Positions 11,703 through 31,057 of a DNA stretch of 38,436 nucleotides are shown here, in pieces. The DNA comes from a virus (Duplodnaviria > Heunggongvirae > Uroviricota > Caudoviricetes), in IMG/VR virus record IMGVR_UViG_2939147180_000005, positions 1-38,436 of that record; one strand, given 5' to 3'. The notes below the pieces were generated by a model. The model saw nothing but the letters and a program-made list of their open reading frames with translations, was not told the origin of the DNA and did not search any database. The position numbers were made by a program, and so were the translations under genes. Numbering within the stretch: position 1 is the stretch's first letter; the number at the start of each line of letters is the position of its first letter.

Positions 11703-11705
11703 CAG

Positions 11706-13606: not shown

Positions 13607-13635
13607 ACAGCCTTGCTTTATGAATAAAACGCACC

Positions 13636-13672
13636 CCAGCAGCCAGTGCTACTGGGGCGGAGGTGTTGCTGG
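13636..13672 (-). terminator. Candidate intrinsic terminator downstream of trkG
   Basis: CCCCAG…CTGGGG hairpin followed on the minus strand by TGCGTTTTATTCAT. Confidence 0.35.
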
Positions 13673-13742
13673 TAAAGTTAGGTATTGGATCAATGAGTGA
13701 GTCAATATAATATTAAACTCACAATTATAAATCAGCCATATA

Positions 13743-16296: not shown

Positions 16297-16511
16297 TATT
16301 CACCTCTCGCAGCCTTGCGCTTATCTTCTTTAATCTTGAAATAAAGGTTTGTCAGGTACGTCAGCAGGCCAAAAACCAGACTACCCAGCACACCGATTGC
16401 AGCCCACTGTGACGGAGTTACTCTATCGAGCAACTGTAAAAACCAGTAGCCAGCACTGCCTGCGGAGGTGCCATAGGCGACACCCGTTGTTAACTTATCC
16501 ATGGATTTCAT
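16296..16511 (-). CDS. Pinholin, phage 21 S-like class II holin with dual-start motif
   Basis: [31 protein letters not shown]…[32 protein letters not shown] matches remembered S21; two TM helices; Met1/Met4 dual start. Confidence 0.85.
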
Positions 16512-16892
16512 AACCCCCACCTCGCAGATGCGGGCGCTGTGTAATGGAAACAAAAAATGGCCACCAGCGGCCCGTAAAAAACACCCCGTCAAAAGCACCG
16601 GCATCCGCAGATGCCCTTTGCGTGGCGTTATTTGATGCGCGCCAGATGTGGCGCAAAGAAATGAAATAAGACTTATCGAAAATTAAGGTTAATTTGATGA
16701 TTTAAACCACTTCTGAAGCTTAGTAGTATGAACATGTCCCCAGAAGGGGGCCAATACTTATGATTCTTCATGGACTTTGTCCCGCGGCGTTAATCCGACG
16801 GCCGCGCTTTTTTTGCGCCATATTCATCGCTAACTTACATGGCATTGCCACACGGGCATTATCAGTGTCCGTGTTTCTTTTTTTAGGGTTCA

Positions 16893-16925
16893 GAATAAAA
16901 AAAACCGCCCGGTGGAGGCGGTAAA
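16893..16925 (-). terminator. Candidate intrinsic terminator between the tRNA cluster and the holin
   Basis: Minus strand reads CCGCC-TCCACCG-GGCGG followed by TTTTTTTTATT. Confidence 0.4.
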
Positions 16926-17197
16926 GGATGTATTTCCAGGTTTTGCTTAGTATATGATTAATCTCAATGTCATTTTTAGCGATGTTTACAACATCGGGAT
17001 GGCACATCACCGGCCCTGCCAGGAAATACAAAATCTCCACCGATAATGCACCATTCTGCTGCCGTAAAAAAATCAGCACTGAGGCTACACCTGGCCTCAA
17101 ATCATAGCCAGAGAACAGAATGCTTTTTCGAAACAACCTGCTCCCACGTAATAAAAATACGCCAGTGCTGCAATACAATAAGGCTTATTTCAAATGC

Positions 17198-17272
<75 letters not shown>

Positions 17273-17275
17273 ATA

Positions 17276-17351
<76 letters not shown>

Positions 17352-17569
17352 ACAGAACCGCCACCGAGGTATCGAATCTCACACCTACCACTTAAATGAT
17401 GGTCGGCTCTTCCCGATGAGCAGATGGCGGTGTTCCCTTAATGGGATAGCTGTATTCAGTAATCCGTTATTCGAATACACCATCGAAGGAACAAGCGCAT
17501 TATATACATTCACGATTCGTGTTATTAGCTAATTGCGCACAACACAGCTTCATTTAACGAAATGCCCCC

Positions 17570-17601
17570 CAGAAACAACAAAACCCGCTCAATGGCGGGT
17601 T
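17570..17601 (-). terminator. Candidate tR'-like terminator downstream of the Q-like gene
   Basis: Minus strand reads AACCCGCCATTGAGCGGGTT hairpin then TTGTTGTTTCTGG; lies 85-115 nt downstream of the Q-like stop. Confidence 0.4.
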
Positions 17602-17684
17602 CTGGTAAAGTTCATGCGCTTGGTTCGCCTCGCGATACAGCTTTGCGAAACATACCGGAATTGAAGCAATTTATGCGTAAAAAA

Positions 17685-18227
17685 TCAAGCTATTTTTTGA
17701 GCAAATGATTCTCGCATGGGAATATACAGGGCATATTCAGCAACGGCTAACCAATTAGCAATTCGCTTTTCGCATGTGCTAAAACACCACTCAGGATGTG
17801 CATCATTCAGCAATTCAGCCATTTTACGCTTAGTCATCCCCCTCCCTTCATATCGTTGCCGGAGGATACAAATCAATCCTGGGTGTTTTGCCAGCACCTC
17901 ACTTATGACTCTATCAATACATAACGCCTCTGCATCAGTACAATGCGCCAGCCAGGTCTTTTGCTTGCCATTGATCATCTCTCGCAAAAACGCTTCCAGC
18001 TCAGGTTTCTCTATTCCCGCTTTTTTCATCCTGCGCAGGGCTTCATTGACGGCTGTTTTCGTCAATTTTTTGGATGCCAGCAACTGGTTAAACATATTTC
18101 CCGTCTTACCGCCGCCAATATACGACCAGCGCCCCCACATGCGCAGTTTTCCCTGAATCCAGACACTTTCCAGCGTGGTGAGACGAAGGTGTTCCCCGCT
18201 TTTGCCTGTATTTGTTGGGTAAATCAT
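17685..18227 (-). CDS. Putative late-gene antiterminator (Q-like)
   Basis: Start re-set to MIYPTNTGKSGEH… (AGGAAGG RBS); position between nin-like genes and the tRNA/lysis region is as for lambdoid Q; family not verified. Confidence 0.45.
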   Translation of the reverse strand: MIYPTNTGKSGEHLRLTTLESVWIQGKLRMWGRWSYIGGGKTGNMFNQLLASKKLTKTAVNEALRRMKKAGIEKPELEAFLREMINGKQKTWLAHCTDAEALCIDRVISEVLAKHPGLICILRQRYEGRGMTKRKMAELLNDAHPEWCFSTCEKRIANWLAVAEYALYIPMRESFAQKIA

Positions 18228-18514
18228 AAATAACCTTCCTTTCTCCAGATTTCTTGTGTGCGAAAAACACCTTCTGCATGCATCAGGCGTAATTCTTCTT
18301 TGGTGTAATCGCTGGTTTTTACCCGCCCGTCGATTAAATCGTGGCATGAGCTATAGGCAATCGCTGCCTGCATATCGTGTGGTTTTGTCGCTGTTCCGCA
18401 CGTCCCCGCCAGCCTGTAATGCGCCAGCACAGAGGTTTCGGGATTGTGATTGCAGTAGCCAGGGATTCTGATCTGGCACATCTGGCCTTTAGCCGCTTTA
18501 CGTAAATCCACCAT
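18224..18514 (-). CDS. YbcO-like protein (DUF1364, putative nuclease)
   Basis: MVDLRKAAKGQMCQIRIPGYCNHNPETSVLAHYRLAGTCGT… resembles remembered DLP12 YbcO with conserved Cys/His. Confidence 0.7.
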   Translation of the reverse strand: MVDLRKAAKGQMCQIRIPGYCNHNPETSVLAHYRLAGTCGTATKPHDMQAAIAYSSCHDLIDGRVKTSDYTKEELRLMHAEGVFRTQEIWRKEGYL

Positions 18515-19113
18515 TACGCAAACTCCAGCAGCTGCGCAGCAACATTTTCGACTTGTTCCGGAGAGGAAAATTTACGGAACAGGATCCAGTTCCAAAGCAC
18601 ATTCAGTACGGATTTATAAACCTGCTGAAACTCGGTATCGTCCATGTTCGCAAACGCGATAGATCTTGCCCTGCGTCCACGGCTACCGTCCGGATAAAAA
18701 TGCTCGGTGTAAAATCCGGCCTCAATAGTTACCCATTCACGGAAAGCATCAAATGACTTTAGCAATGCCGTATCACAGGTTCTGCGTATCGCAATGGTAT
18801 TCAGATATTGTTCTGCGGCATCACTCAGGGCTGGCGTATGTTCCCGGCCGACCGAGTCACACAGATAATCAACGAAACCGGACACAAGTTTTCGTTCACG
18901 AGAGGTGATCGCCCCACCGACAGGAGTCCAGTAATCGAATCCGAGTTGCAGGAGTTTGAAAAAACGCTTGTGAAATGCGTAGTTACGAACGCGCTTAAAA
19001 TCAGCGTGTATCCACTCACCTATTTTTATTTGATGCAAGAATTCGCAACTCTCCGATGTTGCCGGGAGCAGTAATCCAGAAGAGGTATGTTTGATCAGTT
19101 GTATATGTGCCAT
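18514..19113 (-). CDS. nin-region protein (DUF1367-like)
   Basis: 199-aa ORF, start/stop overlap with the YbcO-like gene; family from memory. Confidence 0.5.
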   Translation of the reverse strand: MAHIQLIKHTSSGLLLPATSESCEFLHQIKIGEWIHADFKRVRNYAFHKRFFKLLQLGFDYWTPVGGAITSRERKLVSGFVDYLCDSVGREHTPALSDAAEQYLNTIAIRRTCDTALLKSFDAFREWVTIEAGFYTEHFYPDGSRGRRARSIAFANMDDTEFQQVYKSVLNVLWNWILFRKFSSPEQVENVAAQLLEFA

Positions 19114-19179
19114 CGGCTTTCTCCGGTGGCACGGTGTTACTCAGCAGGGGGTCAACCCTGCGCTGAATTGTAGATGAGT

Positions 19180-19440
19180 TCAATCGTCTTCAAAAGCAGA
19201 AAAGCCAGCTTTTAATCCAATTTCTTTTAATGTCCGTAATGATGTGACAAATTCATCTTCACGCAACATAAATCCGTCCGTCACATGCCCATTCAAGAGA
19301 TATATTAACATAGCCCCACTAGGCTGTTGCAAAGCCCGTGAGCAATGAATGCAGTAACAACTAATAATTTCCCCATTTTCAACGCGCACAGCATAGAGAC
19401 CATCTTTATTAAAAATTTTGCGCAACTTCTTGAAATCCAT
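19180..19440 (-). CDS. Hypothetical protein
   Basis: 86-aa ORF with ATG start; no motif recognised. Confidence 0.4.
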   Translation of the reverse strand: MDFKKLRKIFNKDGLYAVRVENGEIISCYCIHCSRALQQPSGAMLIYLLNGHVTDGFMLREDEFVTSLRTLKEIGLKAGFSAFEDD

Positions 19441-19595
19441 AAACAGAAATTTTCCAGATTAATAGCGTTCCCCTGAAGGGTCCATCCCTCTTCTCCCTGC
19501 GCGCTAACTAAGCAAACACGATTCTATTTACAACAGTCAGTCCCTCAAGACTTACGGCTAAAAGAGTACACAAAAAGCTAATTTATCCACCACAA

Positions 19596-19620
19596 CAAAA
19601 AACCCGCCGAAGCGGGTAAG
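19596..19620 (-). terminator. Intrinsic terminator downstream of hok
   Basis: Minus strand reads ACCCGC-TTCG-GCGGGT followed by TTTTTTGT. Confidence 0.5.
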
Positions 19621-19685
19621 TACGGGTGCGTTGAGGATGCCTGACACATCAGAGGTGGCGGGGGATTTCTCCCCCGCCGGGTCTC

Positions 19686-19841
19686 TTACTCCTCAGGTTC
19701 GTAAGCTGTGAAGACAGCGACCTCCGTCTGGCCGGTTCGGATTCGTACCTCGCAGAGGTCTTTCCTCGTTACCAGTGCCGTCACAACGACGGTTAAACAG
19801 ATGACGATCAGGGCGATTAACATCGCCTTTTGCTGCTTCAT
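19686..19841 (-). CDS. hokD: Hok/Gef-family type I toxin (HokD/RelF-like)
   Basis: Translation MKQQKAMLIALIVICLTVVVTALVTRKDLCEVRIRTGQTEVAVFTAYEPEE; missed by the 60-aa ORF cut-off; a stable GC hairpin (19655-19680) follows the stop. Confidence 0.85.
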   Translation of the reverse strand: MKQQKAMLIALIVICLTVVVTALVTRKDLCEVRIRTGQTEVAVFTAYEPEE

Positions 19842-19899
19842 AGCCTGCTTCTCCTTGACCTTTTGGTCGGTAAGAGGCTAATCTACGTATGCAAAGCAT
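19693..19899 (-). CDS. mok-like overlapping leader ORF (modulation of killing)
   Basis: 68-aa ORF in another frame overlapping all of hok, as in hok/mok/sok loci. Confidence 0.45.
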   Translation of the reverse strand: MLCIRRLASYRPKGQGEAGYEAAKGDVNRPDRHLFNRRCDGTGNEERPLRGTNPNRPDGGRCLHSLRT

Positions 19900-19960
19900 A
19901 GATGTGGCCTCAGATTAATGTTAAGCGTCTTGCCGGACGCGTAATGTTAACTGGGGCTTT
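19850..19960 (+). ncRNA. Probable Sok-like antisense RNA region (boundaries not determined)
   Basis: By analogy with hok/sok, the antitoxin RNA is antisense to the mok start region; TTGACC at 19856 is a possible -35; 5' and 3' ends not resolved. Confidence 0.25.
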
Positions 19961-20053
19961 TCTCTATCTGCCTTTGGTGTTCATGCCCGAGGCAGACAGC
20001 CTCAAGCACCCGCAGCTATTCTACTTAACTCCCGTTACCTCGCCAATATGAAA

Positions 20054-20158
20054 TCAATCAGAAAGGTGATCCATAAGAGCAATAGCAAGACCATAGATTG
20101 CCATTACAGCCGCTATAGCCAACGCACATTTCGTAACCAGCACGTTAACCTCCTGCAT
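20054..20158 (-). CDS. Small hydrophobic peptide (29-34 aa); candidate small membrane protein or type I toxin
   Basis: ATG-CAGGAGG-TTAAC-GTG: AGGAGG sits 5 nt before an in-frame GTG; product (M)LVTKCALAIAAVMAIYGLAIALMDHLSD is one TM helix. Confidence 0.3.
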   Translation of the reverse strand: MQEVNVLVTKCALAIAAVMAIYGLAIALMDHLSD

Positions 20159-20444
20159 TTGACACTCGCATGTGCTGATAAATATGTGGATGTCTCACTG
20201 GTGACTCAATAAAACTATTTGGTGTACTTAGTCTATTTTTTTTCTGTGCAACACAACAAACCGTCACCACCAGCACTTCCTAAATGCGCTGAGTCAGACA
20301 CAAGCCAACATTTTAGTCCGCTTTGAGCGAAGAGCGGACATTGATGCCCCCACAGGCTTTGAAAATATTCAATATAATCACTCCTTGAGTATAAGTTATG
20401 TAGCGGAGGAATACATCCGCTACTTTTTAATGTTATGACAGTAA

Positions 20445-23006
20445 TTAATATTTGAATCTTTTGTTTGGTATGATTTTCAGTTTTTTTGCTAAAGCCGTTA
20501 ACTTTCTTAAGCGCCACTTAAGGGTGGACTCAGTTAATCCTTCCCCTGCAATACCTTTAAAAATTTCATAACAAGGCTGACCAGCGTGTATTGCTTTCCA
20601 GAAATCCTCATAGCCGTCATCAAGTATTTGAGCTGTAAGTGCCTCATTAAGCTCTTCAATATTAGATACTGCTAAGTGCCCATCGACTAAAACACCAGCA
20701 TTATTTAAATCAGATTTTGCTTTAAGCGCTTCTTTTCCAGTAGGCTCTTTACCGTTCAGTATCAAGCTGGTAACTTCAATCATTTTAGCGTGAGATGTTA
20801 CAGGGAAGAAAAGCCCTTTATTTCCTGCCCTTAAGCCCGAAATTTTCTTAAGATTTCCTAACTCAGCTGTTGCATCATTATGCGACACATCTGAGGCAAT
20901 AATGCGACCTTCCCCATCAATTTCTATAATTTTTAGGGCAAGTAACCATGACTTTAAAATCGTAGAGTATAATCCCCATGTTTTCTCTGATGCCTCAATA
21001 AAAGGATAAGACTCAGAAAAATACGTGGGTATATCGCTCTCGAAAACTTTTTCTCCAGAAAGAATTTTTTTAAGTAAAGTCTCGACGAGTTGATTGTCTA
21101 AAATTTTTCGGCGTAGATAACCAGCAAGGGTTCCTTGAGAATATATATCCCTAACATTGGTTGGAATTATCCATTCACCACTTTTAACTGCATCAAGCAA
21201 GTCTAAATTCCGCAATTCCTTAACGAGATTAAATGCGTAACCTTCCCTTACATTTAGGTTTTCCGTTATTTTTGTAATTGTCAGCTTTCTCATTGTTATC
21301 AGTTTATGAAACTGGGATATAACAGAGCTTGGATACATTCTATAAATAACCAGCAGTCTAAATTCAGGAAGCTTTTGGTAGACAAGATATTCTTTGAAAA
21401 CATCGTTATAAGTATCATAGGTAGAACCACTCAAGCGTACCAATCTGTAAGCTGTTAACTTATCGAGGACTTTTACAAGCATTGGGTCTTCGTCAAATTG
21501 GTATTGAAGCTCATTGAAATCTGCTGGTAGCTTAGCTGCAATCTTAACTAGATAATCTTTTTCAATCTCATCCAAACCTTCAAGCTCTTCTTCAAAAAGG
21601 TCGTTCAGTTTTAAGCCCGCACTGATTAAATCCCTCTGAGAGTCACCTTTTCGAGTGAGTTTTAAAACATGAGCTATCGTTCTCTTTAAAAGCCAAGGAA
21701 AACCCTGCGCAAATTCAATAATATAGGGTAGTATTTCTTTACTGAGAATATTAGAGTTATTTTCATTTATTTTTTCTAAAAGAAGTATTGATTCTTTGTT
21801 TTCAAAATCCGGAAGAGTAAAGCTTTTCGATAGCTGATTAATTCTATTAAGAGAAACTTTACTGTTGTCATAGGTTGTTAGCTGATCATTTTTACGCGCA
21901 AACACTATGTATACACCACCACGAAGCTTTGTTATTGAGTTCGCAATGTATTCATAGCAATCGAAAATGTCAGGATTCGAGAATGTAGATTCAAATTGGT
22001 CAACAAAGAAAACTGCCTTTTGGCCATTTAGTGAAAGTTGCAAGTCTTTCAGTTGTTCATCAAGTTCTATAAAATTAGTCGCAATAATGCTGCTTTGGGT
22101 AAACCTCTGAACAAGATAAAAAACATCATATATTGTTTTTACATCCCTTGAGTCATGTAATTCAGTAATAACCCCATCCATTGAGAGCTTGTTTTCTAAA
22201 AAGGATACAAGAGAGCTTTTTCCTACTCCAGAGCGACTTTTTATCTGAAGAACATGTGGTAGCTCATTATGTTTGATGTGAGAAAGAAGTTCACCTATGA
22301 ATTCAGTCCTGCCAACGAACACAGTTGGCCCTGCAGGTAGCCTATAGTCAGCCCATTCAGTCCCAACAGTTAATCCTCGAACTATTTCACGCTTTACTTG
22401 AGGCATTTCGTCAACTATTTTTTTCTTGCTAGGCATAATGAAATCCAAACCAGCAAGTTCTGAAATCCCTATTTTTAAATTTTCCAAAAATCTTTCATCA
22501 TCAATTTGGCTGCCACTTTTATTGAATACCACAAAATTTGATGGCGTTCCTGAATTTACCTCTTTTAAAATAAATAACTTATACAACCCCGTATCAGTCT
22601 TGAGAATGTTTGGGGCCACAAGGTCATAACCTTTAATTTCCTTATGTAGAGATGTTTCAGTCGGCAAATGCAAAGTCGCAGTTATTTGGTTATAAAGTTC
22701 CTTTCCTACCTTTGTCGTTAACCCCATATTTTCGACAGTTCGAAAATAATCTTCCGCCTCCGGTGTTAATGGTGATAATGACAGAAATAATCCATGCACC
22801 TTTTTTTCCAGAAGACCTAGCGGCAAAAGCTTTCCAACGAACGCAGCAACTGTTTGTCCACTCATGCTTTTGCTGTGTGCTTTAGCTTCGCCAATAATCT
22901 TTTGGCCAGTTGCTCTAGAGAATCCTTCAATGTCGTACTCTAAACTAGATTCTTTTTTCCTTAACTCAATGTCGTATCCAGAGCCTTCCAAGTATTCTTT
23001 TAACAA
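20445..23006 (-). CDS. Mrr-like PD-(D/E)xK nuclease fused to a STAND-type P-loop NTPase with a C-terminal helical domain; candidate antiphage defence protein
   Basis: 853-aa ORF, AT-rich. N-terminus …YDIEG…IIGEAKAHSK (D…ExK); P-loop HVLQIKSRSGVGKSSL; Walker B AVFFVDQFE; GxP-like AQGFPWLL; ~400-aa C-terminal region without recognised motifs. Start is TTG at 23006; no upstream ATG. Confidence 0.6.
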   Translation of the reverse strand: MLKEYLEGSGYDIELRKKESSLEYDIEGFSRATGQKIIGEAKAHSKSMSGQTVAAFVGKLLPLGLLEKKVHGLFLSLSPLTPEAEDYFRTVENMGLTTKVGKELYNQITATLHLPTETSLHKEIKGYDLVAPNILKTDTGLYKLFILKEVNSGTPSNFVVFNKSGSQIDDERFLENLKIGISELAGLDFIMPSKKKIVDEMPQVKREIVRGLTVGTEWADYRLPAGPTVFVGRTEFIGELLSHIKHNELPHVLQIKSRSGVGKSSLVSFLENKLSMDGVITELHDSRDVKTIYDVFYLVQRFTQSSIIATNFIELDEQLKDLQLSLNGQKAVFFVDQFESTFSNPDIFDCYEYIANSITKLRGGVYIVFARKNDQLTTYDNSKVSLNRINQLSKSFTLPDFENKESILLLEKINENNSNILSKEILPYIIEFAQGFPWLLKRTIAHVLKLTRKGDSQRDLISAGLKLNDLFEEELEGLDEIEKDYLVKIAAKLPADFNELQYQFDEDPMLVKVLDKLTAYRLVRLSGSTYDTYNDVFKEYLVYQKLPEFRLLVIYRMYPSSVISQFHKLITMRKLTITKITENLNVREGYAFNLVKELRNLDLLDAVKSGEWIIPTNVRDIYSQGTLAGYLRRKILDNQLVETLLKKILSGEKVFESDIPTYFSESYPFIEASEKTWGLYSTILKSWLLALKIIEIDGEGRIIASDVSHNDATAELGNLKKISGLRAGNKGLFFPVTSHAKMIEVTSLILNGKEPTGKEALKAKSDLNNAGVLVDGHLAVSNIEELNEALTAQILDDGYEDFWKAIHAGQPCYEIFKGIAGEGLTESTLKWRLRKLTALAKKLKIIPNKRFKY

Positions 23007-23350
23007 CTCTTCAAAAAGTAACCCCTTGTAATAACTAGTGTTTTTTCAGTTTGTTCAGAGTGAAAAAATAAAAACATTAAACAACTCCATGTAACTATTA
23101 TTGATGAGTTATAACGCTCATTAAATTGGTCAAACCGCACTTAAAACGTGGCTTCCCCATACTAGAAAATCTACTATAAAGAGGATTACATTGCACCTTT
23201 AAATTTTAGAGATTTATAAGTGAGACTAATAATCTCGCACTGTATAATCGCAGGGTAACACATCTTTCAAGCGCCTAGGTGCTCAGATATAAGCCAGATA
23301 TTAATATAGTGCTCACTATTCCTCGAAAGACCTAGAATGACCGCTTCCGG

Positions 23351-24556
23351 CTGTGAGTTCAATCAGTGGATGCAACGCTATCCTTAATCAAGGGGGACGT
23401 TGCCATGAAACGAAGAACTCGGATTAACTACACGCCAGAGCAGAAGGCAATTATCTGGGACAGATATAAGCAAGGTGATTCTCTCCATGATATCGCCAGA
23501 ATGTTCGACAGATATCATTCTTCCATTATGCCCACTATCCACCAGACAGGGAGCTACCGTCCTCCCGTGCGAAAACGGTACCGATTAGCGCTTTCGCTTG
23601 ATAAAAGAGAGGAGATATCCAGAGGAGTGGTAGCAAAACTCAGTATCAGGGACATCGCCGCCAAATTATCAAAAGCGCCTTCAACGATTAGCCGCGAGGT
23701 CAGGAGGCACGGAGGTGCCAAACAATACCGTGCAGCAAAAGCCGATACTGCTGCATGGGAAAATGCTCTGAGACCAAAACCTTGCAAGCTAATTGAAAGC
23801 CCACATTGTGTAAAATCATTGCAGAGAAGATGCATCAGGACTAGTCGCCGGAACAGATCGCCGGCTGGCTGAAACGCTGTTATCCGGATAATCAGGAAAT
23901 GCATGTGTCACACGAAACGATTTATAAAACGCTTTTTATACAAACCCGGGGTGCATTAAAAAAAGAACTGCAGCAATGCCTCAGAAGCGGAAGAGCGGTT
24001 CGTAGATCCAGAACATCATCGCTTAAAGGGAAAGGGTTAGGGTCAATCCCAGATACGATACCAATAAGCGAAAGGCCACCTGAAGTTGCAGACAGAGCCA
24101 TACCGTGTCACTGGGAAGGTGACCTGATCCAGTGCTCGAAAAACTCCTTTATCGTCACCCTCGTAGAACGCCATTCCCGCTTTGTTATGCTGGCAAAAAT
24201 CAGAGACAACAAGACCATAACGGTTATATCTGCACTCATCAGACAAGCCCGGGAATTACCTGTTGAGCTTTATAAAACACTAACATGGGACCGGGGCGCT
24301 GAAATGACCAGCCATACCCGGTTTACTGTAGCGACAGATATTCAGATTTATTTCTGTGATCATCAATCTCCATGGCAACGCGGCTCAAATGAAAATACAA
24401 ACAGATTACTCAGACAGTATTTTCCAAAAGGAACTGACTTATCAGTTCACACAGTGTTGCCAGACAGCTCAACGAGCGGCCAAGAAAAACGCTAGACTAC
24501 GAATCACCCGCAGAACGGTTCAATAAGTGTCTTGCGTCCATCAGTTTAACTCACAG
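23351..24556 (+). mobile_element. IS30-family insertion sequence with decayed transposase
   Basis: Imperfect terminal inverted repeats CTGTGAGTTCAATCAGTGGATGCAACGC (23351-) and CTGTGAGTTAAACTGA on the opposite strand (-24556); internal ORFs are homologous to IS30 transposase. Confidence 0.7.
23366..24495 (+). pseudogene. IS30-family transposase, disrupted by a frameshift near 23806-23810, an in-frame TAG at 23842-23844 and a C-terminal frameshift
   Basis: N-terminal HTH part (23366-23872) and DDE catalytic part (23899-24495, …HWEGDL…TWDRG…QSPWQRGSNENTN…) are in different frames; the bridging frame reads …KIIAEKMHQD*SPEQIAGWL… where IS30 has Trp. Confidence 0.75.
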
Positions 24557-24689
24557 CGAAAAGCAGAAGTTCAAAATTTTTCATAACGACTGATGAGAAC
24601 AACTCCAATTATCAAGTTTACTGGTACCTCTGCCAAGCGTACTTAGAGGTCTATGTCTAAACCACCCGCCATGCAGGTGGTTGATTTAC

Positions 24690-26294
24690 CTAATTAGGCC
24701 TTGCTTGAATCGCAGACTCTATAGCTTCTCGGAATTCCGGAGCATCACTTCTTAATCGATAATCATCAAGTGTATTGAATATTTCTAGAAGTTCTTTACG
24801 ATAATACGGCGATGCCAAATTACCTTCGCCTCTAGTTGTGAAAATTAATAATGAGTCAGCGACGTCTTTTAATTTTTTATTCCTTTTCAATCTAATGTAA
24901 CAAGACACAATTATACCAAGAATATCTTTCCTAGATTTCAAAGTGAGTTTTGAATTAGGCAAAACCAACTCCAACATAGCACCAAGTAATTTGGTAGCCT
25001 CTTTTGAAATATAATGAAGATCGAAATTTTCTGTTTCTTTATTTTCTTGAAGGATGTCCCTTTCATCTATCCATTCGCATTGTTCTGCCCAATTTATAGC
25101 GATGCTAAATAAATGACAGAGAAGGAAGTGAAAAGGTGTTTCCCATTCACCACTATATTCATTCGACTGCCTATTCATATTCTTTATGATTTTCTTTGCA
25201 AAATGTGTATAGTAATGCAGCCATAAATGATCCTGAAGCCCCTGATGAATACCTTCATGAACCATGATTTCAAACAGCGTGATCCCAGAGTAAATAGGAC
25301 ATTTATACTTCGAAACATCTGAATAAGAACCTAAAGATTTATTAAGTGTAGCAATAATTTTTTCATCTTCATCTAACCTCCAGTAGATATATTCACCGAT
25401 GTCACGGTATATTGCTAAATCAGCCGCAAACTTAGCATTGGAAAAGAAAAAATGTAATATACGATTGTTTTTCGGGATCAACAAACGATGCCCTCGACTA
25501 ACGTTAAGATTATTTTTAAGCTCAACATATAGACGACTGTTAGGTGAATCTAGTAATGCACTGATAAAATTAGAAGTAAAGTCAGAACGAACTATTGGTT
25601 CGATCTTGATTAACTCAAGGCAGAGGGATGGGTGCGCAAGTGCAAAGTGATTGGTAAGTTCAGGTGATGAGACAATATTTAATAATGCTTCATGTGCATA
25701 TTCGGCAGCAGTCTCGCGATTAGAGATGCGGAGATTGTTAGCTATCTTATCACAAAGTCGATTCTTCACCGGACTATCAATTATTGATATCAACTTTTCT
25801 AGTTGAGGTGCCAACAATTGTGCCAGATCATCGTATCGTTTAGTAAGGTGCAAATTTTCCACTAACTCTAGAAATATTCCTGTTCTTCCAACTGAAAGTT
25901 TAGGTTTTTTTAAGCGAAATAAAATGTAAATAGCAACTGCGAGTGATATCAGGTATACGGCACTTGAACTATCTAATCCCCATTTCCAGGGGCCAAAACT
26001 AAAATATAAGTCTAGTGATTTTAAAGCTGGTGCAAACACCAAATAATTGCTTAGTAAGAATGCGAAACCAACAATTGCCCAATCCCACCACGCCAGGCAG
26101 AACCTCAAACGTAGTCGAGCGTTTGGAGTAATAAGGGCCCATACGGCAGCAATAACGCCCAGTATGGTAAGTAGACTTGAAGTATCAATTTTGGTTGGCG
26201 GTGTCATAATTTCTCTTGTAATCATGGTTTGATGTACATCGGAATGGCTTAACATGATAAGGCTCTTTGTATTATAAATCAGAACATTATGCAC
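24690..26294 (-). CDS. Membrane-anchored protein of unknown function (N-terminal TM helices plus ~430-aa cytoplasmic domain)
   Basis: 534-aa AT-rich ORF; hydrophobic helices in …LLTILGVIAAVWALI… / …WAIVGFAFLLSNYLVFAPAL… / …VYLISLAVAIYILF…; start ambiguous (GTG 26294, ATG 26255, or ATG 26207 with AAGAGA RBS). Confidence 0.6.
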   Translation of the reverse strand: MHNVLIYNTKSLIMLSHSDVHQTMITREIMTPPTKIDTSSLLTILGVIAAVWALITPNARLRLRFCLAWWDWAIVGFAFLLSNYLVFAPALKSLDLYFSFGPWKWGLDSSSAVYLISLAVAIYILFRLKKPKLSVGRTGIFLELVENLHLTKRYDDLAQLLAPQLEKLISIIDSPVKNRLCDKIANNLRISNRETAAEYAHEALLNIVSSPELTNHFALAHPSLCLELIKIEPIVRSDFTSNFISALLDSPNSRLYVELKNNLNVSRGHRLLIPKNNRILHFFFSNAKFAADLAIYRDIGEYIYWRLDEDEKIIATLNKSLGSYSDVSKYKCPIYSGITLFEIMVHEGIHQGLQDHLWLHYYTHFAKKIIKNMNRQSNEYSGEWETPFHFLLCHLFSIAINWAEQCEWIDERDILQENKETENFDLHYISKEATKLLGAMLELVLPNSKLTLKSRKDILGIIVSCYIRLKRNKKLKDVADSLLIFTTRGEGNLASPYYRKELLEIFNTLDDYRLRSDAPEFREAIESAIQARPN

Positions 26295-26576
26295 ACGGTT
26301 AACAATACCCTCAAAATGGCATTAATTAAATGGACACTACTTGTCCACTCAGTTTTTTTAGTCGGCTTTTTCCGACTAACGTTTGGATGTCCTATTGAAA
26401 TTACGCGCCTTACATGAGCAACACTGCAACTGCATGTTTATCATAGGGATTGTGCTAATCAAATTACTGAAGCTTAAGGTCCGCCCCTGGCACAAAACAG
26501 ACAACCACGCTAGCCGTATCCTGTGCCATGAAACTGTCAATTCACATATGAATTAGTGGTCTTTAATCTCGTCACT

Positions 26577-26993
26577 TCAATAAATACCAACATTCCCCTG
26601 ATAAAATGCTAATACACGCTGCATAACTTCACTCTTCCGGCACTCGCGACAAATTATGTTCTGACACCTGTCGTAGCGGCGTATTTCTCCGTCTGGTAAT
26701 GACCAGATAAGGTCAGGATCAACCATAACCGGTTCCTTCGACTTTGCCCTCGAGAGTTTTTTGCGGGCGTTTTGCCAGTCTTGACGTGCCTGCTCAGACG
26801 GAAATAACCCATAGCCAGAGTTGTATACGTCACCACTCGAAACCAGCTCTTTGGCGAGAATACTTATCAGATATCTGGTTGCCCCTGTTTTAGCTTCCAG
26901 TTGTCGTAACGTCTCTCGCCCGCTCTGGCGTACGAGATCAACAATCTGCCCTTTAATTTTTTCTCGCTCTTCCTGTGTTAATACTTTTGCCAT
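26577..26993 (-). CDS. Hypothetical protein, possible DNA-binding
   Basis: Start at MAKVLTQEEREK… with AGGGGAGGG RBS; C-terminal CQNIICRECRK cysteine cluster. Confidence 0.5.
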   Translation of the reverse strand: MAKVLTQEEREKIKGQIVDLVRQSGRETLRQLEAKTGATRYLISILAKELVSSGDVYNSGYGLFPSEQARQDWQNARKKLSRAKSKEPVMVDPDLIWSLPDGEIRRYDRCQNIICRECRKSEVMQRVLAFYQGNVGIY

Positions 26994-27009
26994 AAGCCCT
27001 CCCCTGGAA

Positions 27010-27735
27010 TCACTTTTCCGACACAATACGACTGGAGGAATCGACAATCTGACGGACAATGTCCTGGTGCTTGTTCAGCTCACGCAGCGCGGCGCAGACT
27101 CGCTCCCACTTCTGGACATGACTTTTCGCCCGGCGCAGTTCGCGGTTTGCCATTTGCAGCGATGGTAAAATCAGGTCATTGGCTCGCGTTTCAGTGAACG
27201 ATGGTAGTGACTGCACAATGTCCCCCACAGTATCTGTTTTAATTTCTTCCTGTGTTGCCGCTTCCTGTACTGGTAACGCAACACCGGCTGGCTGAGGAAA
27301 GCCTTTACCAGGTGTTTTAACTACCGATACAACTTTCGGCTCTGCTGGTAAATTACCGTCCGGCAGGCAGTAATGAAATTTACCGTTCTGATTTACGCGA
27401 ATCAGACGACCTTTGCTGATGGCCATAGCCAGCGATGAGTTCACCCTGCGGGAAGTAATTCTGAATATCAGTGCAAGTTCATCAGCCGCTTTAGGGCCAT
27501 GCTGTTCAATCGCCTCGATCAGCATTTGCGCTGTCACTTTAGAAGCCTGTGCCACAGATGCGTTTTCGTCGGTTTGAGTCAACCACCACATCGGGCCCTT
27601 GTTATCAGCTTCCCCGCGACGCTTCAGTTTCCACAGCTCGTTAATCGCCTCATCCCGGGTCATTCCCAGACGTGCTGCCACTTCCTGGGAAGAGGCTTTT
27701 CCCATTGCTTTCAGTGCGTCAAAAACGGTCTCCAT
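27010..27735 (-). CDS. Prophage protein downstream of the DnaC-like gene (YdaW/DUF1627-like)
   Basis: Start METVFDALKAMGK… with GGGAGG RBS; N-terminal HTH-like region; family from memory. Confidence 0.45.
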   Translation of the reverse strand: METVFDALKAMGKASSQEVAARLGMTRDEAINELWKLKRRGEADNKGPMWWLTQTDENASVAQASKVTAQMLIEAIEQHGPKAADELALIFRITSRRVNSSLAMAISKGRLIRVNQNGKFHYCLPDGNLPAEPKVVSVVKTPGKGFPQPAGVALPVQEAATQEEIKTDTVGDIVQSLPSFTETRANDLILPSLQMANRELRRAKSHVQKWERVCAALRELNKHQDIVRQIVDSSSRIVSEK

Positions 27736-28504
27736 TAAAATTTCCTCCCGGTAAAAATTGCTTCTCAATTCCTGGCTGACCAACATTCGGGCGCCAGCTC
27801 TCCCAGTTAAAATTCACCCATCGCCCGCCGTTCATGGTCATCCGATCCATAATCCTCTCGCCGAGCAATGTTTTCATGGCCTCATAGTTCAGGTTTGTCA
27901 GCATCCCCACGCTGCGGATCGACGCTGTCCGGCGATCAACAATCTGGTGCAGTACCACCTGCTCGTTTTTTGTCTCGCACTGAATGCCAATTTCATCAAG
28001 AACCAGCAGATCCACTTCGCACAGTTCCCGCAAAAATTTTTCGCCTGATTGCCCGTCGTCATAGCTGGCGTGTAGAGCACTCATAACATCAGCCACGGTA
28101 ACCACAATCACTGTCTGACCGTTTTTCAGCAGGCGATTCCCGATAGCCGCCGCCAGATGGTTTTTTCCGGTACCAGGTTTTCCGCTGAACGCAAAATTTG
28201 TACACCCGACCATCAGTTCATCGGCGATGGATTTCGCCTGGCTCAACGCGTATCGCTGGCCGTCGTTCTGCACCTGGTAATTCGAAAACGAGCATTTGCG
28301 GTGCAACGGCTGGATGCCGGAGCGATTCAGAATTTTTTCCACCCGCAACTGACGATTCTGGCGATTGATCTCCTCGCAACGTTTCTGGCCTTCTGCAAGT
28401 TGCCACTCGCGCCACTCCGCCACCGTCCTGAATGGCGCGGTTACATGTGACGGGGCCAGTCTGCGGATACGTTCCAGAACGCCGCCTGTCGCAATATTTT
28501 TCAT
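27719..28504 (-). CDS. ydaV: DnaC-like replication protein (helicase loader, AAA+)
   Basis: Walker A …FAFSGKPGTGKNHLAAAIG…, Walker B …LLVLDEIG…; 261 aa. Confidence 0.8.
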   Translation of the reverse strand: MKNIATGGVLERIRRLAPSHVTAPFRTVAEWREWQLAEGQKRCEEINRQNRQLRVEKILNRSGIQPLHRKCSFSNYQVQNDGQRYALSQAKSIADELMVGCTNFAFSGKPGTGKNHLAAAIGNRLLKNGQTVIVVTVADVMSALHASYDDGQSGEKFLRELCEVDLLVLDEIGIQCETKNEQVVLHQIVDRRTASIRSVGMLTNLNYEAMKTLLGERIMDRMTMNGGRWVNFNWESWRPNVGQPGIEKQFLPGGNFNGDRF

Positions 28505-28510
28505 GGTCAG

Positions 28511-29305
28511 TTACCCCCTGAAGCCTGGCGGGATCGCACTGTCCGGCAACGAGACGGTGTTAACCTGTCGGAGCAACGTCTCAGGCCGAACACCTTTCGG
28601 CGCGAACAAGCCCTGGTATTCATTGGCGATGCTGTGTCGAATCACCTGCTCAGGGGTAAAACCCTGCTGGCGGAATTTTTCCAGTTCCCGTATCGCCCCG
28701 TTAGCGCCCTGCTCCGTTCGAATCGGTTTTCGCAATGCCTGCCTGAACTGGACCCACTCATTCCAGAGTGTTTCTGGCAACCAGTCGGGCAGAGCAATGG
28801 CCTCCGGCTCGAATTTTTTAGACGCTCGTTTTTGCCGAGGGGGATTTAGGGGGAGATCAGTATTTTTATCTTCCTCTTCCTCTTCCTCTTCCTCTGGTAA
28901 CGCTTTTTGATCCGTTTGTGTAACGCTGGCAGCGTTACCTTTTCGCTTCAGTTCGCGTATTTTTGTAACTCTCTCGTTTGTAACCGCCCGTTTTTTCGAG
29001 CTTTTTCCGTTATGACGCTCAAAGTTAGGTAGTGAAAGCACTCCATCACTTTCGACCAGCCATCCAACCTGAATTAACGCATCAGCAAAACCAGCCATAA
29101 AAGTGATACGGTCTATTGCACTTTTTGTAACACCTCGAGCGTTACACTCTGCGTTACCATCAATCATTTGTTGATCCGCCCATGCCCAGAATCGAATGAC
29201 CTTCCCTAATGCGGCATCTGGATCAATATTAAGAATCTCAGCAATCCTGAATATTTCCGGTTTATCCGGCGTAATAACTTCGAGCTTTATCCAGTTTGAA
29301 GCCAT
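28511..29305 (-). CDS. ydaU: Replication initiator-like protein (YdaU-like) with poly-Glu linker
   Basis: Start MASNWIKLEV… with AAGGTG RBS; internal EEEEEEEED linker encoded by (TTCCTC)4 on the plus strand; iteron-like palindromes lie in and upstream of the gene. Confidence 0.6.
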   Translation of the reverse strand: MASNWIKLEVITPDKPEIFRIAEILNIDPDAALGKVIRFWAWADQQMIDGNAECNARGVTKSAIDRITFMAGFADALIQVGWLVESDGVLSLPNFERHNGKSSKKRAVTNERVTKIRELKRKGNAASVTQTDQKALPEEEEEEEEDKNTDLPLNPPRQKRASKKFEPEAIALPDWLPETLWNEWVQFRQALRKPIRTEQGANGAIRELEKFRQQGFTPEQVIRHSIANEYQGLFAPKGVRPETLLRQVNTVSLPDSAIPPGFRG

Positions 29306-29383
29306 ATTGTTTTCACCTTGTAACGCTCGCAGCGTTACATTTAACTGATACCGAACAAAACGCTCCGGCACGATTAATTTCAA

Positions 29384-29806
29384 TCAATGCACTACGACAG
29401 AATCGCCGGATGATCCGCCGCGGCTGAAATGCGCTTTCCGGTAAACGGCCTGGACTGCATCATCATGCGCATCAATTGCCGTATTCAGCGCTTCCTGAGC
29501 CGCCAGTAATGCGCGACGTTCCAGGGTGTCAAAAACGCTGAGGCGGTGTCGCAGTTCGCGCGGAAGAATTGCCAGGATTGCAGGAATCAACTTCTGGATT
29601 TTTTCCCTTTGCGCCTTTGTTTCACCTTTTAACCAGCGGTGATAGATGTTTTGCTGATTGTTCCAGTCCTTGCCTGGAGCCAGGGCTAATTCACTCTCCC
29701 CCTGGCGCAAATATTCTTCAGTAATTGCGTTGGCAACCCACGCCTGACCTTTTTCGGCAGCCAGAGCTAACAACACTGATTCAATGTGCTCATGCCTGAT
29801 TTTCAT
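29384..29806 (-). CDS. ydaT: YdaT-like protein (cII-like regulator candidate)
   Basis: Translation from MKIRHEHIESVLLALAAEKGQAWVANAITEEYLRQG… resembles remembered Rac YdaT. Confidence 0.6.
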   Translation of the reverse strand: MKIRHEHIESVLLALAAEKGQAWVANAITEEYLRQGESELALAPGKDWNNQQNIYHRWLKGETKAQREKIQKLIPAILAILPRELRHRLSVFDTLERRALLAAQEALNTAIDAHDDAVQAVYRKAHFSRGGSSGDSVVVH

Positions 29807-30017
29807 GAATACCCTTACCCGCCCGCTTTGCCTTACGATATTTGTCATAGATATTTGAGTCGTACTGAAGCTCCCCGCCAGATGCCTCTTGCAGACGCAT
29901 CGCGCGGCCTTCAGGAACCAGTTCCCCCCATTGAGAAACAGCAGATGGATCAACGCCAGCAGCTTTCGCCACTTTGGCTTTCGTGCCGTAATAATTAATT
30001 ACGTCTGATTTAAACAT
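29790..30017 (-). CDS. ydaS: Cro-like HTH regulator (YdaS-like)
   Basis: Start MFKSDVINYYGTKAKVAKAAGVDPSAVSQW… with GGAGG RBS; HTH motif; divergent from racR across an operator-bearing spacer. Confidence 0.65.
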   Translation of the reverse strand: MFKSDVINYYGTKAKVAKAAGVDPSAVSQWGELVPEGRAMRLQEASGGELQYDSNIYDKYRKAKRAGKGIHENQA

Positions 30018-30026
30018 TGCACCTCC

Positions 30027-30049
30027 AATATTGAGTTTTCTCAATGTTA
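30027..30049. promoter_or_regulatory. Operator-like palindrome in the racR/ydaS divergent control region
   Basis: AATATTGAGTTTTCTCAATGTTA (TTGAG-N-CTCAA dyad) in the 77-bp spacer between the divergent HTH genes. Confidence 0.5.
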
Positions 30050-30094
30050 ATCACTCAAGGAATCTCAAGTCAAGGGTTATTAAGATATCTAAAT

Positions 30095-30502
30095 ATGAAC
30101 GAGAAAACTTTAGGTCAACGAATTAGAGAAAGACGCAAGCAGGTAGGCTTAAGTCAAAGTGGTTTAAGCAAAGCTGCTGGCGTTTCTGGCTCATCAATTT
30201 CATTATGGGAAAGTGACCATACAGCCCCGCGTGGGCAAAATTTGCATAGACTCGCCGAGGTATTACAATGCTCACCGACCTGGATACTGTTCGGTGATGA
30301 GGATAAAACTCCGGATGCCCCAGTTTCACTCAATAGCCCCTTAGACTTATCGGAAGATGAACTGGAGATGTTGCGACTGTATCGCGCACTTCCAAAATCC
30401 GAACAACAAGCACAAATCAGTGAACTCAGCGCTCGAGTTGAGAATTTTAATCGCCTATTTACTGAGCTATTAGAAGCTCGCAAGCGTAACAAACATCAAT
30501 AA
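30095..30502 (+). CDS. racR: Prophage repressor RacR (XRE-family HTH)
   Basis: MNEKTLGQRIRERRKQVGLSQSGLSKAAGVSGSSISLWE… is an XRE HTH; matches remembered RacR. Confidence 0.8.
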   Translation: MNEKTLGQRIRERRKQVGLSQSGLSKAAGVSGSSISLWESDHTAPRGQNLHRLAEVLQCSPTWILFGDEDKTPDAPVSLNSPLDLSEDELEMLRLYRALPKSEQQAQISELSARVENFNRLFTELLEARKRNKHQ

Positions 30503-30555
30503 TCACCCCATCACAAATTTTTAAAGCCTTACATTTCAATGTATTGGCTTTATCT

Positions 30556-30617
30556 TGAGTCAAATATTGAGTTTTCTCATCAAAAACACTTGACCAAAAA
30601 CAATGAGAAAACTAAAT
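30556..30617. promoter_or_regulatory. Second operator cluster (OL-like) downstream of racR
   Basis: AATATTGAGTTTTCTCA at 30564-30580 and its inverted copy AATGAGAAAACT at 30602-30613, plus CTTGAGTCAA at 30554-30563. Confidence 0.45.
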
Positions 30618-30770
30618 TACATCCCATCAAAACACCGCACGGTGTTCTCAGCAAACAGTTCCGCCACCCGGCGTTAAGGGGATACGAAGATGATCGCAGA
30701 TGAAAAGCAGGGACTGGTGTTAAAAATAGATACCAGCCCCCTGAGACATCAGATTGAGAAGTTATACAAA

Positions 30771-30962
30771 CTACTTGTTCCTGCGGTTTTTAACTGTCCG
30801 GATGATTTTATTGATTGTTTTATTAAAGTGTTCACTGAAATCAGAATCTTTGATTTCCGCAAAACAATCACCGCAGATAAAACGATCATTGTCAGAGCCA
30901 GAGTGCTCATCGATCTCAATGTAGCGAGATCGGCAATGAGGACAGCGAAATTTAATATCCAT
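30771..30962 (-). CDS. Small zinc-ribbon protein (possibly YdaF-like)
   Basis: MDIKFRCPHCRSRYIEIDEHSGSDNDRFICGDCFAEIK… has two CxxC pairs; AAGGA RBS; fully antisense to an alternative plus-strand ORF. Confidence 0.45.
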   Translation of the reverse strand: MDIKFRCPHCRSRYIEIDEHSGSDNDRFICGDCFAEIKDSDFSEHFNKTINKIIRTVKNRRNK

Positions 30963-31057
30963 AATTAATATCCTTACAGCAAATTACCATTTGTAAGGAT
31001 ATCACCTCACCTGATGTGGTTAAAAGCAGGTCGTAGGCTCCACGATACGGAGCAACT

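What the first reader, a model, noticed from the sequence alone, without database searches (positions are those of the whole stretch)
24690..26294. Uncharacterised 534-aa membrane protein that may partner the nuclease/NTPase gene across the IS30 insertion
Seen: same strand and the same low GC as the 853-aa gene; N-terminal TM helices and a large soluble domain with no recognisable motif. Removing the IS30-family element leaves about 480 bp between the two genes. Inference: they may have been acquired together, either as a two-gene module (membrane effector plus cytoplasmic sensor/nuclease) or as two independent defence or exclusion genes.
Basis: inference. Interest (0 to 1): 0.7.

Follow-up and report, generated by a model that had tools for sequence, protein, structure and literature searches.

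The report
Stand-alone membrane protein defence-cassette gene
The gene encodes a membrane-anchored protein of a large, unstudied family that travels alone in a small mobile cassette found at phage-defence hotspots, and it sits next to the nuclease/NTPase gene only because two separate cassettes were stacked side by side.

Summary
The ORF is real, on the minus strand and low in GC (36.8%). It has three N-terminal TM helices and no Pfam, NCBIfam, PADLOC or PDB match. Its likely start is ATG 26207 (505 aa), not GTG 26294 (534 aa).

The two-gene-module reading is not supported. The membrane gene and the Mrr-nSTAND1 NTPase co-occur only in one recent 6.2-kb block, seen in 33 of 5426 E. coli genomes and always with the same dead IS30-family element. 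Every other relative of either gene lacks the other.

Each gene lies in its own cassette bounded by a 24-bp palindrome (GTCCGCTnnGTGCCAnnAGCGGAC type). The IS sits in the centre of the palindrome at the cassette junction, with a 2-bp GC duplication. The window's NTPase copy is also frameshifted (A7 to A6).

The membrane-gene cassette occurs alone in a P2-like prophage, where a sister prophage carries Shedu between the same palindromes. It also occurs beside Lamassu/Gabija, in CP4-57-like islands and in phage-plasmids. Other such cassettes carry PD-T7-1, ThsB, DarTG and similar genes.

Best reading: an autonomous single-gene candidate for anti-phage defence or exclusion, acting at the inner membrane. 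Its mechanism is unknown. The HExxH motif is not conserved, and the fold is a generic alpha-solenoid.

The parts
24690..26207 (-). Membrane-protein gene, 505 aa (ATG 26207, TAG stop 24690-24692). The longest ORF extends to GTG 26294 (534 aa).
25908..26180 (-). Codons for three TM helices (about residues 10-27, 42-62, 81-100). Predicted topology is N-out, C-in, from the RLRLR loop and the K/R cluster after TM3.
   Evidence: hydropathy, AF2 secondary structure; topology is inferred from the positive-inside rule
25083..25538 (-). Most conserved core of the cytoplasmic alpha-solenoid domain (residues 224-375). E229 and M315 are invariant. S224, A261, G271, F312, H327, L330, Y332, E354 and W373 are at least 90% conserved across 57 distant family representatives.
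26286..26314 (-). Promoter-like site (TTGAGG-17-CATAAT) in the 295-bp upstream region that travels with the gene. A consensus match only.
26479..26502 (-). 24-bp palindrome (A type, GTCTGTTTTGTGCCAGGGGCGGAC) at the 5' boundary of the membrane-gene cassette and of the 6.2-kb block.
24623..26502 (-). Membrane-gene cassette as retained here. It is 88-93% identical in at least 6 other contexts. Its 3' flank is about 190 bp shorter than in IS-free copies.
23352..24555 (+). Dead IS30-family (ISCfr4-like) element of 1204 bp. The transposase has a frameshift, an internal stop and a 16-nt deletion. A 2-bp GC duplication lies at 23350-23351 and 24556-24557.
23339..23351 (.). Half of the split 24-bp junction palindrome, on the NTPase-cassette side. 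The other half is at 24556-24568. Reconstructed target on the gene strand: TTCTGCTTTTCGCCGGAAGCGGTC.
20445..23077 (-). Mrr_cat + nSTAND1 NTPase gene. The intact allele is 877 aa. Here it is frameshifted by A7 to A6 at 23041-23046, leaving an 853-aa ORF from TTG 23006.
20316..20339 (.). 24-bp palindrome (B type; + strand GTCCGCTTTGAGCGAAGAGCGGAC) at the 3' boundary of the NTPase cassette and of the 6.2-kb block.

Best explanation
The 505-aa gene is a self-contained, single-gene accessory cassette and is not a partner of the NTPase. This part is shown. The cassette comprises about 295 bp of conserved upstream DNA with a promoter-like site, the gene, and a 3' flank, and it is bounded by 24-bp palindromes. 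It moves as a unit between prophages (lambdoid/Rac-like, P2-like), phage-plasmids, integrative islands and chromosomal defence islands. In this window it was stacked next to a separate NTPase cassette. An IS30-family element then inserted into the palindrome at the junction and decayed, and the whole 6.2-kb block later moved again. The following part is inferred. The protein is anchored in the inner membrane by three helices and presents a roughly 400-aa cytoplasmic alpha-solenoid with a conserved polar patch (E229, N233, N248, H327, E354, W373). It most likely acts alone as a prophage-carried anti-phage defence or superinfection-exclusion determinant. The solenoid would recognise a phage or DNA-entry component at the membrane, and the protein would then either block the infection or compromise the membrane (abortive infection). 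The defence role rests on guilt by association, and the mechanistic step is a guess.
For: Independence of the two genes:
- tblastn finds the NTPase next to the membrane gene only in the shared block (L002), and in none of the other loci.
- NTPase homologues at 95%, 92% and 67% identity sit alone in a Pantoea ICE, another prophage and a Vibrio island.
- In E. coli the membrane gene occurs in 80 of 5426 genomes. Only 33-34 of these carry the block, and always with the IS.
- The homology breakpoints of each cassette recur at the same palindromes: 24623-26502 alone in at least 6 contexts, and 20317-23351 alone in Pantoea.
- The palindrome matches twice in the window against 0 expected by chance.

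Defence association:
- In P2-like sister prophages, the slot between the tail-fibre-assembly and sheath genes holds the membrane gene plus a 244-aa gene in one and Shedu in the other. The swap is delimited exactly by the palindromes.
- That slot is a described P2 defence hotspot (PMC13586616).
- Neighbours elsewhere include LmuB + Cap4 and GajA/GajB, putAbiC, DUF3800 + an ABC-3C/Lamassu system, and SduA, LmuA, ZorG and PD-T7-1.
- Other palindrome-bounded cassettes carry PD-T7-1, PD-T7-5, ThsB, DarT/DarG, NsnA and PD-T4-2.

Protein features:
- Three TM helices, and an AF2 model with pLDDT 82 and pTM 0.76 that is all-alpha.
- The family has 827 clusters at 50% identity and a uniform architecture.
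Against: - There is no experimental or homology evidence for any activity.
- PADLOC (2023) has no model for the family, and no paper mentions the accessions.
- Some contexts are not defence-like: Cellvibrio between lpd and spoT, Pandoraea next to an MFS gene.
- The Yersinia cassette array also carries LysE, an acetyltransferase and AraC/MFS genes, so cassette cargo is not exclusively defence.
- In Yersinia the gene shares a cassette with a putAbiC-like gene. In one Pseudomonas/Delftia/Xanthomonas clade it is always convergent with DUF3800. Partners in some lineages are therefore not excluded.
Confidence: 0.55

Rival explanations
1. Two-gene module: the membrane protein is the effector and the Mrr-nSTAND1 NTPase is the cytoplasmic sensor/nuclease, split by a later IS30 insertion.
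For: The two genes share strand, adjacency and low GC. The pair has moved together between a Rac-like prophage and a genomic island.
Against: Co-occurrence is limited to one block that is at least 98.7% identical and always carries the same dead IS. No other homologue of either gene has the other nearby. Each gene has its own palindrome-bounded cassette, found singly elsewhere. The IS sits at the cassette junction, so an IS-free two-gene ancestor need never have existed. The NTPase is frameshifted here while the membrane gene is intact.
Confidence: 0.04
2. The protein is an accessory membrane protein with a non-defence role. Examples are MGE maintenance, entry exclusion against conjugation, envelope stress, or lysogenic conversion. 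On this reading it rides in the same cassette system only because that system moves any accessory gene.
For: Cassette cargo in Yersinia includes LysE, an acetyltransferase and AraC/MFS genes. Some family members lie between housekeeping genes. No defence-type enzymatic domain is present.
Against: At least 10 independent contexts have known defence genes as direct neighbours or as allelic alternatives in the same slot. The gene is carried by several phage types in classical moron or defence slots.
Confidence: 0.25
3. The family normally works with a variable neighbour: DUF3800 in Pseudomonas/Delftia/Xanthomonas, putAbiC-like in Yersinia, or the 244-250-aa PHROG 16890 gene in P2-like/Leclercia loci. 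The enterobacterial solo copies would then be orphan components.
For: DUF3800 is convergent at 12-50 nt in 5 contexts whose membrane proteins are 71-87% identical. putAbiC shares a cassette with no internal palindrome. L003 and L066 share the 250-aa gene.
Against: None of these neighbours is present in more than a minority of contexts. The convergent orientation argues against an operon. The 250-aa gene lies in its own palindrome-bounded cassette. The solo cassette is conserved intact in many lineages, with the identical protein on 116 contigs.
Confidence: 0.1
4. It is a membrane-tethered zinc metalloprotease that uses the HEGIH (HExxH) motif at residues 317-321.
For: In the close subfamily, H317, E318 and H321 are conserved, with E354 lying 33 residues downstream.
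Confidence: 0.02

Closest known systems
Single-gene cargo systems of prophage defence hotspots, such as the P2 Z/fun and old/tin loci and P4 hotspots (Rousset et al. 2022, PMC9122126; NAR 2026, PMC13586616)
   Same: A 93%-identical copy occupies the slot between the tail-fibre-assembly and sheath genes of a P2-like prophage, and a sister prophage carries Shedu there. The unit is compact, carries its own promoter-like region, and swaps rapidly between MGEs.
   Different: This gene has no recorded test or name, and no DefenseFinder or PADLOC-type model. It shares no sequence or fold with validated hotspot systems.
Membrane-anchored phage exclusion/abortive-infection proteins (lambda RexB, P22 SieA, T4 Imm, lactococcal AbiC). 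Comparison from general knowledge only.
   Same: Prophage-borne, with N-terminal TM helices and a presumed site of action at the inner membrane. One Yersinia homologue shares a cassette with a putAbiC-like gene.
   Different: There is no homology. This protein is much larger, with a roughly 400-aa cytoplasmic alpha-solenoid. No pore-forming or ion-channel features have been shown.
STAND NTPase defence proteins with an N-terminal Mrr nuclease (Avs/AVAST-like; nSTAND1 of Kaur et al.). This applies to the neighbouring gene.
   Same: The neighbour matches nSTAND1 (33.1 bits against a 27.1 cutoff) and Mrr_cat. It is a single large protein found alone in islands and prophages.
   Different: It matches no PADLOC Avs model. 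It is not functionally tied to the membrane gene, and it is frameshifted in this window.
Integron gene cassettes/attC sites, and REP doublets (REPINs)
   Same: Cargo units of 0.4-5.5 kb are bounded by imperfect palindromes. Adjacent cassettes are separated by a B-(14-19 nt)-A site that can fold into a roughly 66-nt hairpin. Cargo is very diverse, with 89-90 protein families in about 100 cassettes.
   Different: The palindrome core is GTCCGCT...AGCGGAC, not the integron R'/R'' GTTRRRY core and not the E. coli REP consensus. No integron integrase or RAYT was seen or searched for. Arrays lie inside phages, ICEs and islands. The recombination mechanism is unknown.
HEAT/ARM-type alpha-solenoid repeat proteins
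   Different: Identity is only 5-13%, there is no specific family, and no functional inference is possible.

Membership tests
Two-gene defence system (membrane effector + STAND sensor) | Conserved co-occurrence and spacing of the two genes across divergent genomes | tested here: not met
   Co-occurrence is found only in one block at least 98.7% identical (33 E. coli genomes). It is absent from all other loci of either gene.
Two-gene defence system (membrane effector + STAND sensor) | An IS-free ancestral locus with both genes | tested here: not met
   None was found in E. coli complete genomes, GTDB representative genomes, plasmids, phages or IMG/VR. The IS lies at the junction of two separately bounded cassettes.
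Known or candidate anti-phage defence families (PADLOC-DB v2.0.0) | HMM match to a catalogued defence protein | tested here: not met
   0 families at E<=1 for either protein.
Defence-island/hotspot cargo (guilt by association) | Recurrent location next to, or allelic with, validated defence systems in several unrelated contexts | tested here: met
   Shedu is allelic in the P2-like slot. Neighbours elsewhere are Lamassu + Gabija, putAbiC, ABC-3C/Lamassu + DUF3800, GajA, and SduA/LmuA/ZorG/PD-T7-1 (66).
Zincin metalloproteases (HExxH) | HExxH invariant across the family, plus a third ligand | tested here: not met
   Both histidines vary in the 57-representative alignment. Only E318 (partly) and E354 persist.
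Zincin metalloproteases (HExxH) | Peptidase fold | tested here: not met
Pfam/NCBIfam curated families | Match above the gathering threshold | tested here: not met
   No family matches the window protein. Among 57 distant members there are only two isolated weak hits. The one library match is PHROG 13820, of unknown function.
IS30 family insertion sequence (the element between the genes) | IS30-type transposase, terminal IRs, 2-bp target duplication, insertion into a near-palindromic hot spot | tested here: met
   It is 92-93% identical to annotated IS30/ISCfr4-family copies. IRs read TGTGAGTT[C/A]AA..., with a GC duplication and a 24-bp palindromic target. The preference for near-palindromic hot spots and the 2-bp duplication are documented for IS30 (PMC9333248). 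The transposase is inactivated.
Integron gene cassette | attC site with R''/R' cores (RYYYAAC / GTTRRRY) and an associated IntI integrase/attI | tested here: not met
   The boundary palindromes have GTCCGCT/AGCGGAC cores. The integrase was not searched for systematically.
nSTAND1 / Mrr-STAND NTPase (neighbouring gene) | nSTAND1 NTPase domain above the Pfam threshold, plus an N-terminal Mrr_cat nuclease | tested here: met
   nSTAND1 scores 33.1 bits (cutoff 27.1). Mrr_cat scores 20.1 bits (cutoff 21) in the truncated window copy, and PF04471 is recorded for most full-length homologues.

The most novel reading that the evidence does not exclude
The 505-aa protein founds a new single-gene, membrane-anchored anti-phage system. 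It and its NTPase neighbour are cargo of a previously uncharacterised, integron-like cassette system of Enterobacterales. In that system, 24-bp GTCCGCT...AGCGGAC palindromes (hairpin-forming B-spacer-A junctions) delimit exchangeable defence cassettes. Such a system would provide the missing mechanism for the rapid swapping of defence genes among P2-like and lambdoid prophages, ICEs and islands, which PMC13586616 says is still to be elucidated. The same palindromes are the insertion hot spot of an IS30-family element.
Probability: 0.3. Interest if true: 0.85.

Novelty: new variant of a known kind. Interest (0 to 1): 0.6.

Why it matters
If the cloned cassette protects against phages, it adds a widespread system to the defence catalogue. 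The family has 827 clusters at 50% identity across Proteobacteria and beyond, has no Pfam or PADLOC model, and has a fold unrelated to known effectors. Independently, the palindrome-bounded cassettes give a concrete, testable handle on how defence genes are shuffled between phage hotspots and genomic islands. A 2026 survey of P2/P4 hotspots leaves that mechanism open. The result also warns against reading adjacency in defence islands as functional partnership.

Tried and rejected
- **HExxH metalloprotease:** suggested by the close-subfamily alignment, then rejected because the motif is not conserved family-wide and the fold does not fit.
- **Operon test by terminator/promoter scan:** only a weak stem-loop follows the stop codon, so this was inconclusive. 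Comparative evidence was used instead.
- **Sequence searches:** PDB sequence search with two profiles gave only chance-level hits. Pfam on 57 distant members found nothing.
- **Structure searches:** Foldseek against BFVD and PDB found nothing significant. The afdb50 library was unavailable.
- **Conserved-neighbour search:** all-vs-all ORF clustering over 23 loci found no neighbour in more than 5 contexts apart from overlapping shadow ORFs.
- **The search for related loci with the divergent alignment A3:** failed because it had no stretch conserved enough.
- **Literature:** accession numbers and the palindrome sequence returned nothing relevant. Nilsson et al. 2004 (Mol Biol Evol 21:1), which may describe repeats at the P2 Z/fun locus, is not held.
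- **Empty-site comparison with phage HannyBb:** the flanks match, but the intervening DNA is different and has no palindromes, so it is not a clean empty site.

Full report
**1. Observation**

The ORF reported at 24690-26294 (-) exists. Homologues, RefSeq annotation of identical DNA and PHROG 13820 all start at the third in-frame Met. That gives ATG 26207 and a 505-aa product. The identical 505-aa protein is recorded on 116 contigs. The 29 extra codons overlap a promoter-like site.

GC is 36.8% for this gene and 36.3% for the NTPase gene, against 45.5% for the window. Hydropathy and an AlphaFold2 model (pLDDT 82.4, pTM 0.76) give three N-terminal TM helices followed by an all-alpha domain. The Arg-rich loop after TM1 and the Lys/Arg cluster after TM3 place the large domain in the cytoplasm. 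That topology is an inference from the positive-inside rule. Pfam, NCBIfam and PADLOC find nothing.

The window is a Rac-like lambdoid prophage with ydaT, ydaV, a sieB pseudogene, hokD and essD/rrrD. The two genes lie between the replication module and the nin-like genes.

**2. The neighbours**

The '853-aa' gene matches nSTAND1 and, just below the cut-off, Mrr_cat. Its homologues are 877 aa long. In the window, a 1-nt deletion in an A7 run (23041-23046) shifts the frame after codon 11. The 853-aa ORF is the remnant.

The element between the genes is 92-93% identical to ISCfr4-like IS30-family copies. It has a frameshift, an internal stop and a 16-nt deletion, so it is dead. The IS proper spans 23352-24555 and has a 2-bp GC duplication. 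Removing it leaves 477 bp to the TTG start and 406 bp to the true ATG.

**3. Do the two genes belong together?**

In 5426 complete E. coli genomes, 33 carry both genes. All carry the same dead IS, at 98.7-100% identity, in two unrelated contexts: this prophage and a genomic island. The membrane gene itself is in 80 genomes, about 42 of them at 90-95% identity without the NTPase.

Across 20 GTDB loci, 17 IMG/VR loci, Klebsiella and E. coli phage-plasmids and several look-ups by exact protein, tblastn finds no NTPase homologue within 6-8 kb of any membrane-gene homologue outside the block. The converse also holds. NTPase homologues at 95% (Pantoea ICE), 92% (another prophage) and 67% (Vibrio island) lack the membrane gene.

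**4. Two cassettes, not one module**

DNA comparison shows two discrete units. Window 24623-26502 (membrane gene with its upstream region) recurs at 88-93% identity in Leclercia, Pectobacterium, an E. coli Lamassu/Gabija island, CP4-57-like islands and P2-like prophages. Window 20317-23351 (NTPase) recurs at 89.7% in Pantoea.

The breakpoints coincide with a 24-bp palindrome. There is an A type (GTCCGCTnnGTGCCAnnAGCGGAC) 5' of the cargo and a related B type 3' of it. The window has two matches, at 20316-20339 and 26479-26502, exactly at the ends of the 6.2-kb block. None is expected by chance.

In other loci cassettes are arrayed as A-cargo-B, then 14-19 nt, then A-cargo-B. The B-spacer-A junction can fold into a long hairpin. 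In two sister P2-like prophages the homology breaks exactly at these palindromes. One carries the membrane gene plus a 244-aa gene, and the other carries Shedu.

A scan of IMG/VR returned at least 120 stretches with the A palindrome. About 100 A-to-B units of 0.4-5.5 kb held 89-90 distinct protein families. These include PD-T7-1, PD-T7-5, ThsB, DarT/DarG, NsnA, PD-T4-2 and several PDC candidates.

The terminal 13 bp that flank ISCfr4-like copies equal the two halves of the A palindrome, so this IS inserts in the palindrome's centre. That matches the near-palindromic hot-spot targeting and 2-bp duplication documented for IS30 (PMC9333248). The IS is therefore where it is because the cassette junction is its target. 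It did not split an operon.

**5. What the protein may be**

The family is large, with 827 clusters at 50% identity at E<=0.001, almost all 480-620 aa and sharing one architecture. No member matches a Pfam family, and there is no PDB relative by sequence.

The most conserved part is residues 224-375. E229 and M315 are invariant, and S224, H327, E354 and W373 are at least 90% conserved.

**6. Context**

Direct neighbours or allelic alternatives include:
- Shedu
- LmuB + Cap4 and GajA/GajB
- putAbiC
- DUF3800 + LmuB_C/MC3/CTD7
- split GajA
- SNF2 + methylase
- SduA, LmuA, ZorG and PD-T7-1

The gene also sits next to the tail sheath gene in another myovirus prophage, next to an integrase, and in SSU5-like phage-plasmids. 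The P2 tail-gene (Z/fun) locus is a recognised defence hotspot, and untested hotspot genes often prove protective (PMC13586616).

Some contexts are housekeeping. Cassette cargo in Yersinia is not only defence.

**7. Explanation**

Shown: the gene is an autonomous, separately mobile single-gene cassette, and its adjacency to the NTPase is secondary.

Inferred, at moderate confidence: it is an anti-phage defence or exclusion determinant.

Guessed: the cytoplasmic solenoid recognises an incoming phage component at the inner membrane, and the protein then blocks or aborts infection.

Rivals are a non-defence accessory role, lineage-specific partners (DUF3800, putAbiC, the 244-250-aa gene), the two-gene module, and a metalloprotease. 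The last two are essentially excluded.

**8. Novelty**

The gene family is uncharacterised and absent from defence catalogues. Its kind, prophage-borne single-gene candidate defence, is known. The palindrome-bounded cassette system may be the more important lead. A 2026 survey states that the recombination process behind hotspot swapping is not understood and does not mention such repeats. An older paper I recall but could not read (Nilsson et al. 2004) may have touched on them.

Noticed in passing
window 20316-20339 and 26479-26502; also L003, L023, L041, L052, L066, L082, L083 and L085-L204: 24-bp palindromes of the GTCCGCTnnG[T/A]GC[C/G]AnnAGCGGAC type bound exchangeable gene cassettes. They form hairpin-capable B-(14-19 nt)-A junctions in arrays. 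They delimit swaps such as Shedu versus the membrane gene in P2-like prophages, and they flank many known defence genes. The mechanism is unknown and may be integron- or REPIN-like.
   Followed up: partly
window 23041-23046 (gene 20445-23077, - strand): The Mrr-nSTAND1 NTPase is frameshifted by loss of one A in an A7 run after codon 11. The intact allele is 877 aa. The 848/853-aa form is common (424 member sequences), so this is a spread allele, a possible slippage-prone tract, or a pseudogene.
   Followed up: partly
window 23339-23351 / 23352-24555 / 24556-24568: The dead ISCfr4-like IS30-family element is inserted exactly in the centre of a 24-bp junction palindrome with a GC duplication. 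The 13 bp flanking other copies of this IS equal the halves of the A palindrome, which implies site-specific targeting of cassette boundaries. L060 also has a solo IS30-like IR at the cassette's 3' end.
   Followed up: partly
window 24572-24689 compared with L003 9519-9860, L066 7519-7860: The 3' flank of the membrane-gene cassette lacks about 190 bp that IS-free copies contain, including a long inverted repeat just after the stop codon.
   Followed up: partly
L025-L040, L006, L009, L017 (about 12-50 nt downstream of the homologue, opposite strand): In Pseudomonas, Delftia, Xanthomonas and Stutzerimonas, a DUF3800 gene (80-100% identical among loci) is always convergent with the homologue. It is often followed by an ABC-3C/Lamassu set (LmuB_C, MC3, CTD7). 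DUF3800 weakly matches PADLOC candidates PDC-M04A and PDC-S51.
   Followed up: partly
L082 7894-8628 (-), L003 9894-10646 (-), L187 3202-3951 (-): A 244-250-aa gene (PHROG 16890, unknown function) sits in its own palindrome-bounded cassette next to the membrane-gene cassette, in P2-like prophages and in Leclercia.
   Followed up: no
L023/L024 (Yersinia enterocolitica), 1357-14273: An array of at least 6 palindrome-bounded cassettes carries mixed cargo: DUF2569, LysE, putAbiC plus the homologue in a single cassette, an acetyltransferase, and AraC + MFS. No recombinase lies within +/-8 kb.
   Followed up: no
L009 4851-7847, L017 4785-7847: A roughly 1000-aa SMC/ABC-type ATPase with a partial match to PADLOC Ppl (E 1.5e-30) lies directly upstream of the homologue on the same strand in two Pseudomonas/Stutzerimonas loci.
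   Followed up: no
window about 15500-20300 and 26500-31000 (seen in the identical record L205): The prophage context includes hokD, two tRNA genes (Gly, Thr), ydaT/ydaV, a DUF977 gene and a frameshifted sieB. It is a Rac-like lambdoid prophage with further decayed exclusion genes.
   Followed up: no
H122-H129 (E. coli genomes): Several E. coli copies of the membrane gene at 93.5% identity are 1517 bp long and annotated as two hypothetical proteins, which suggests frameshifted alleles.
   Followed up: no
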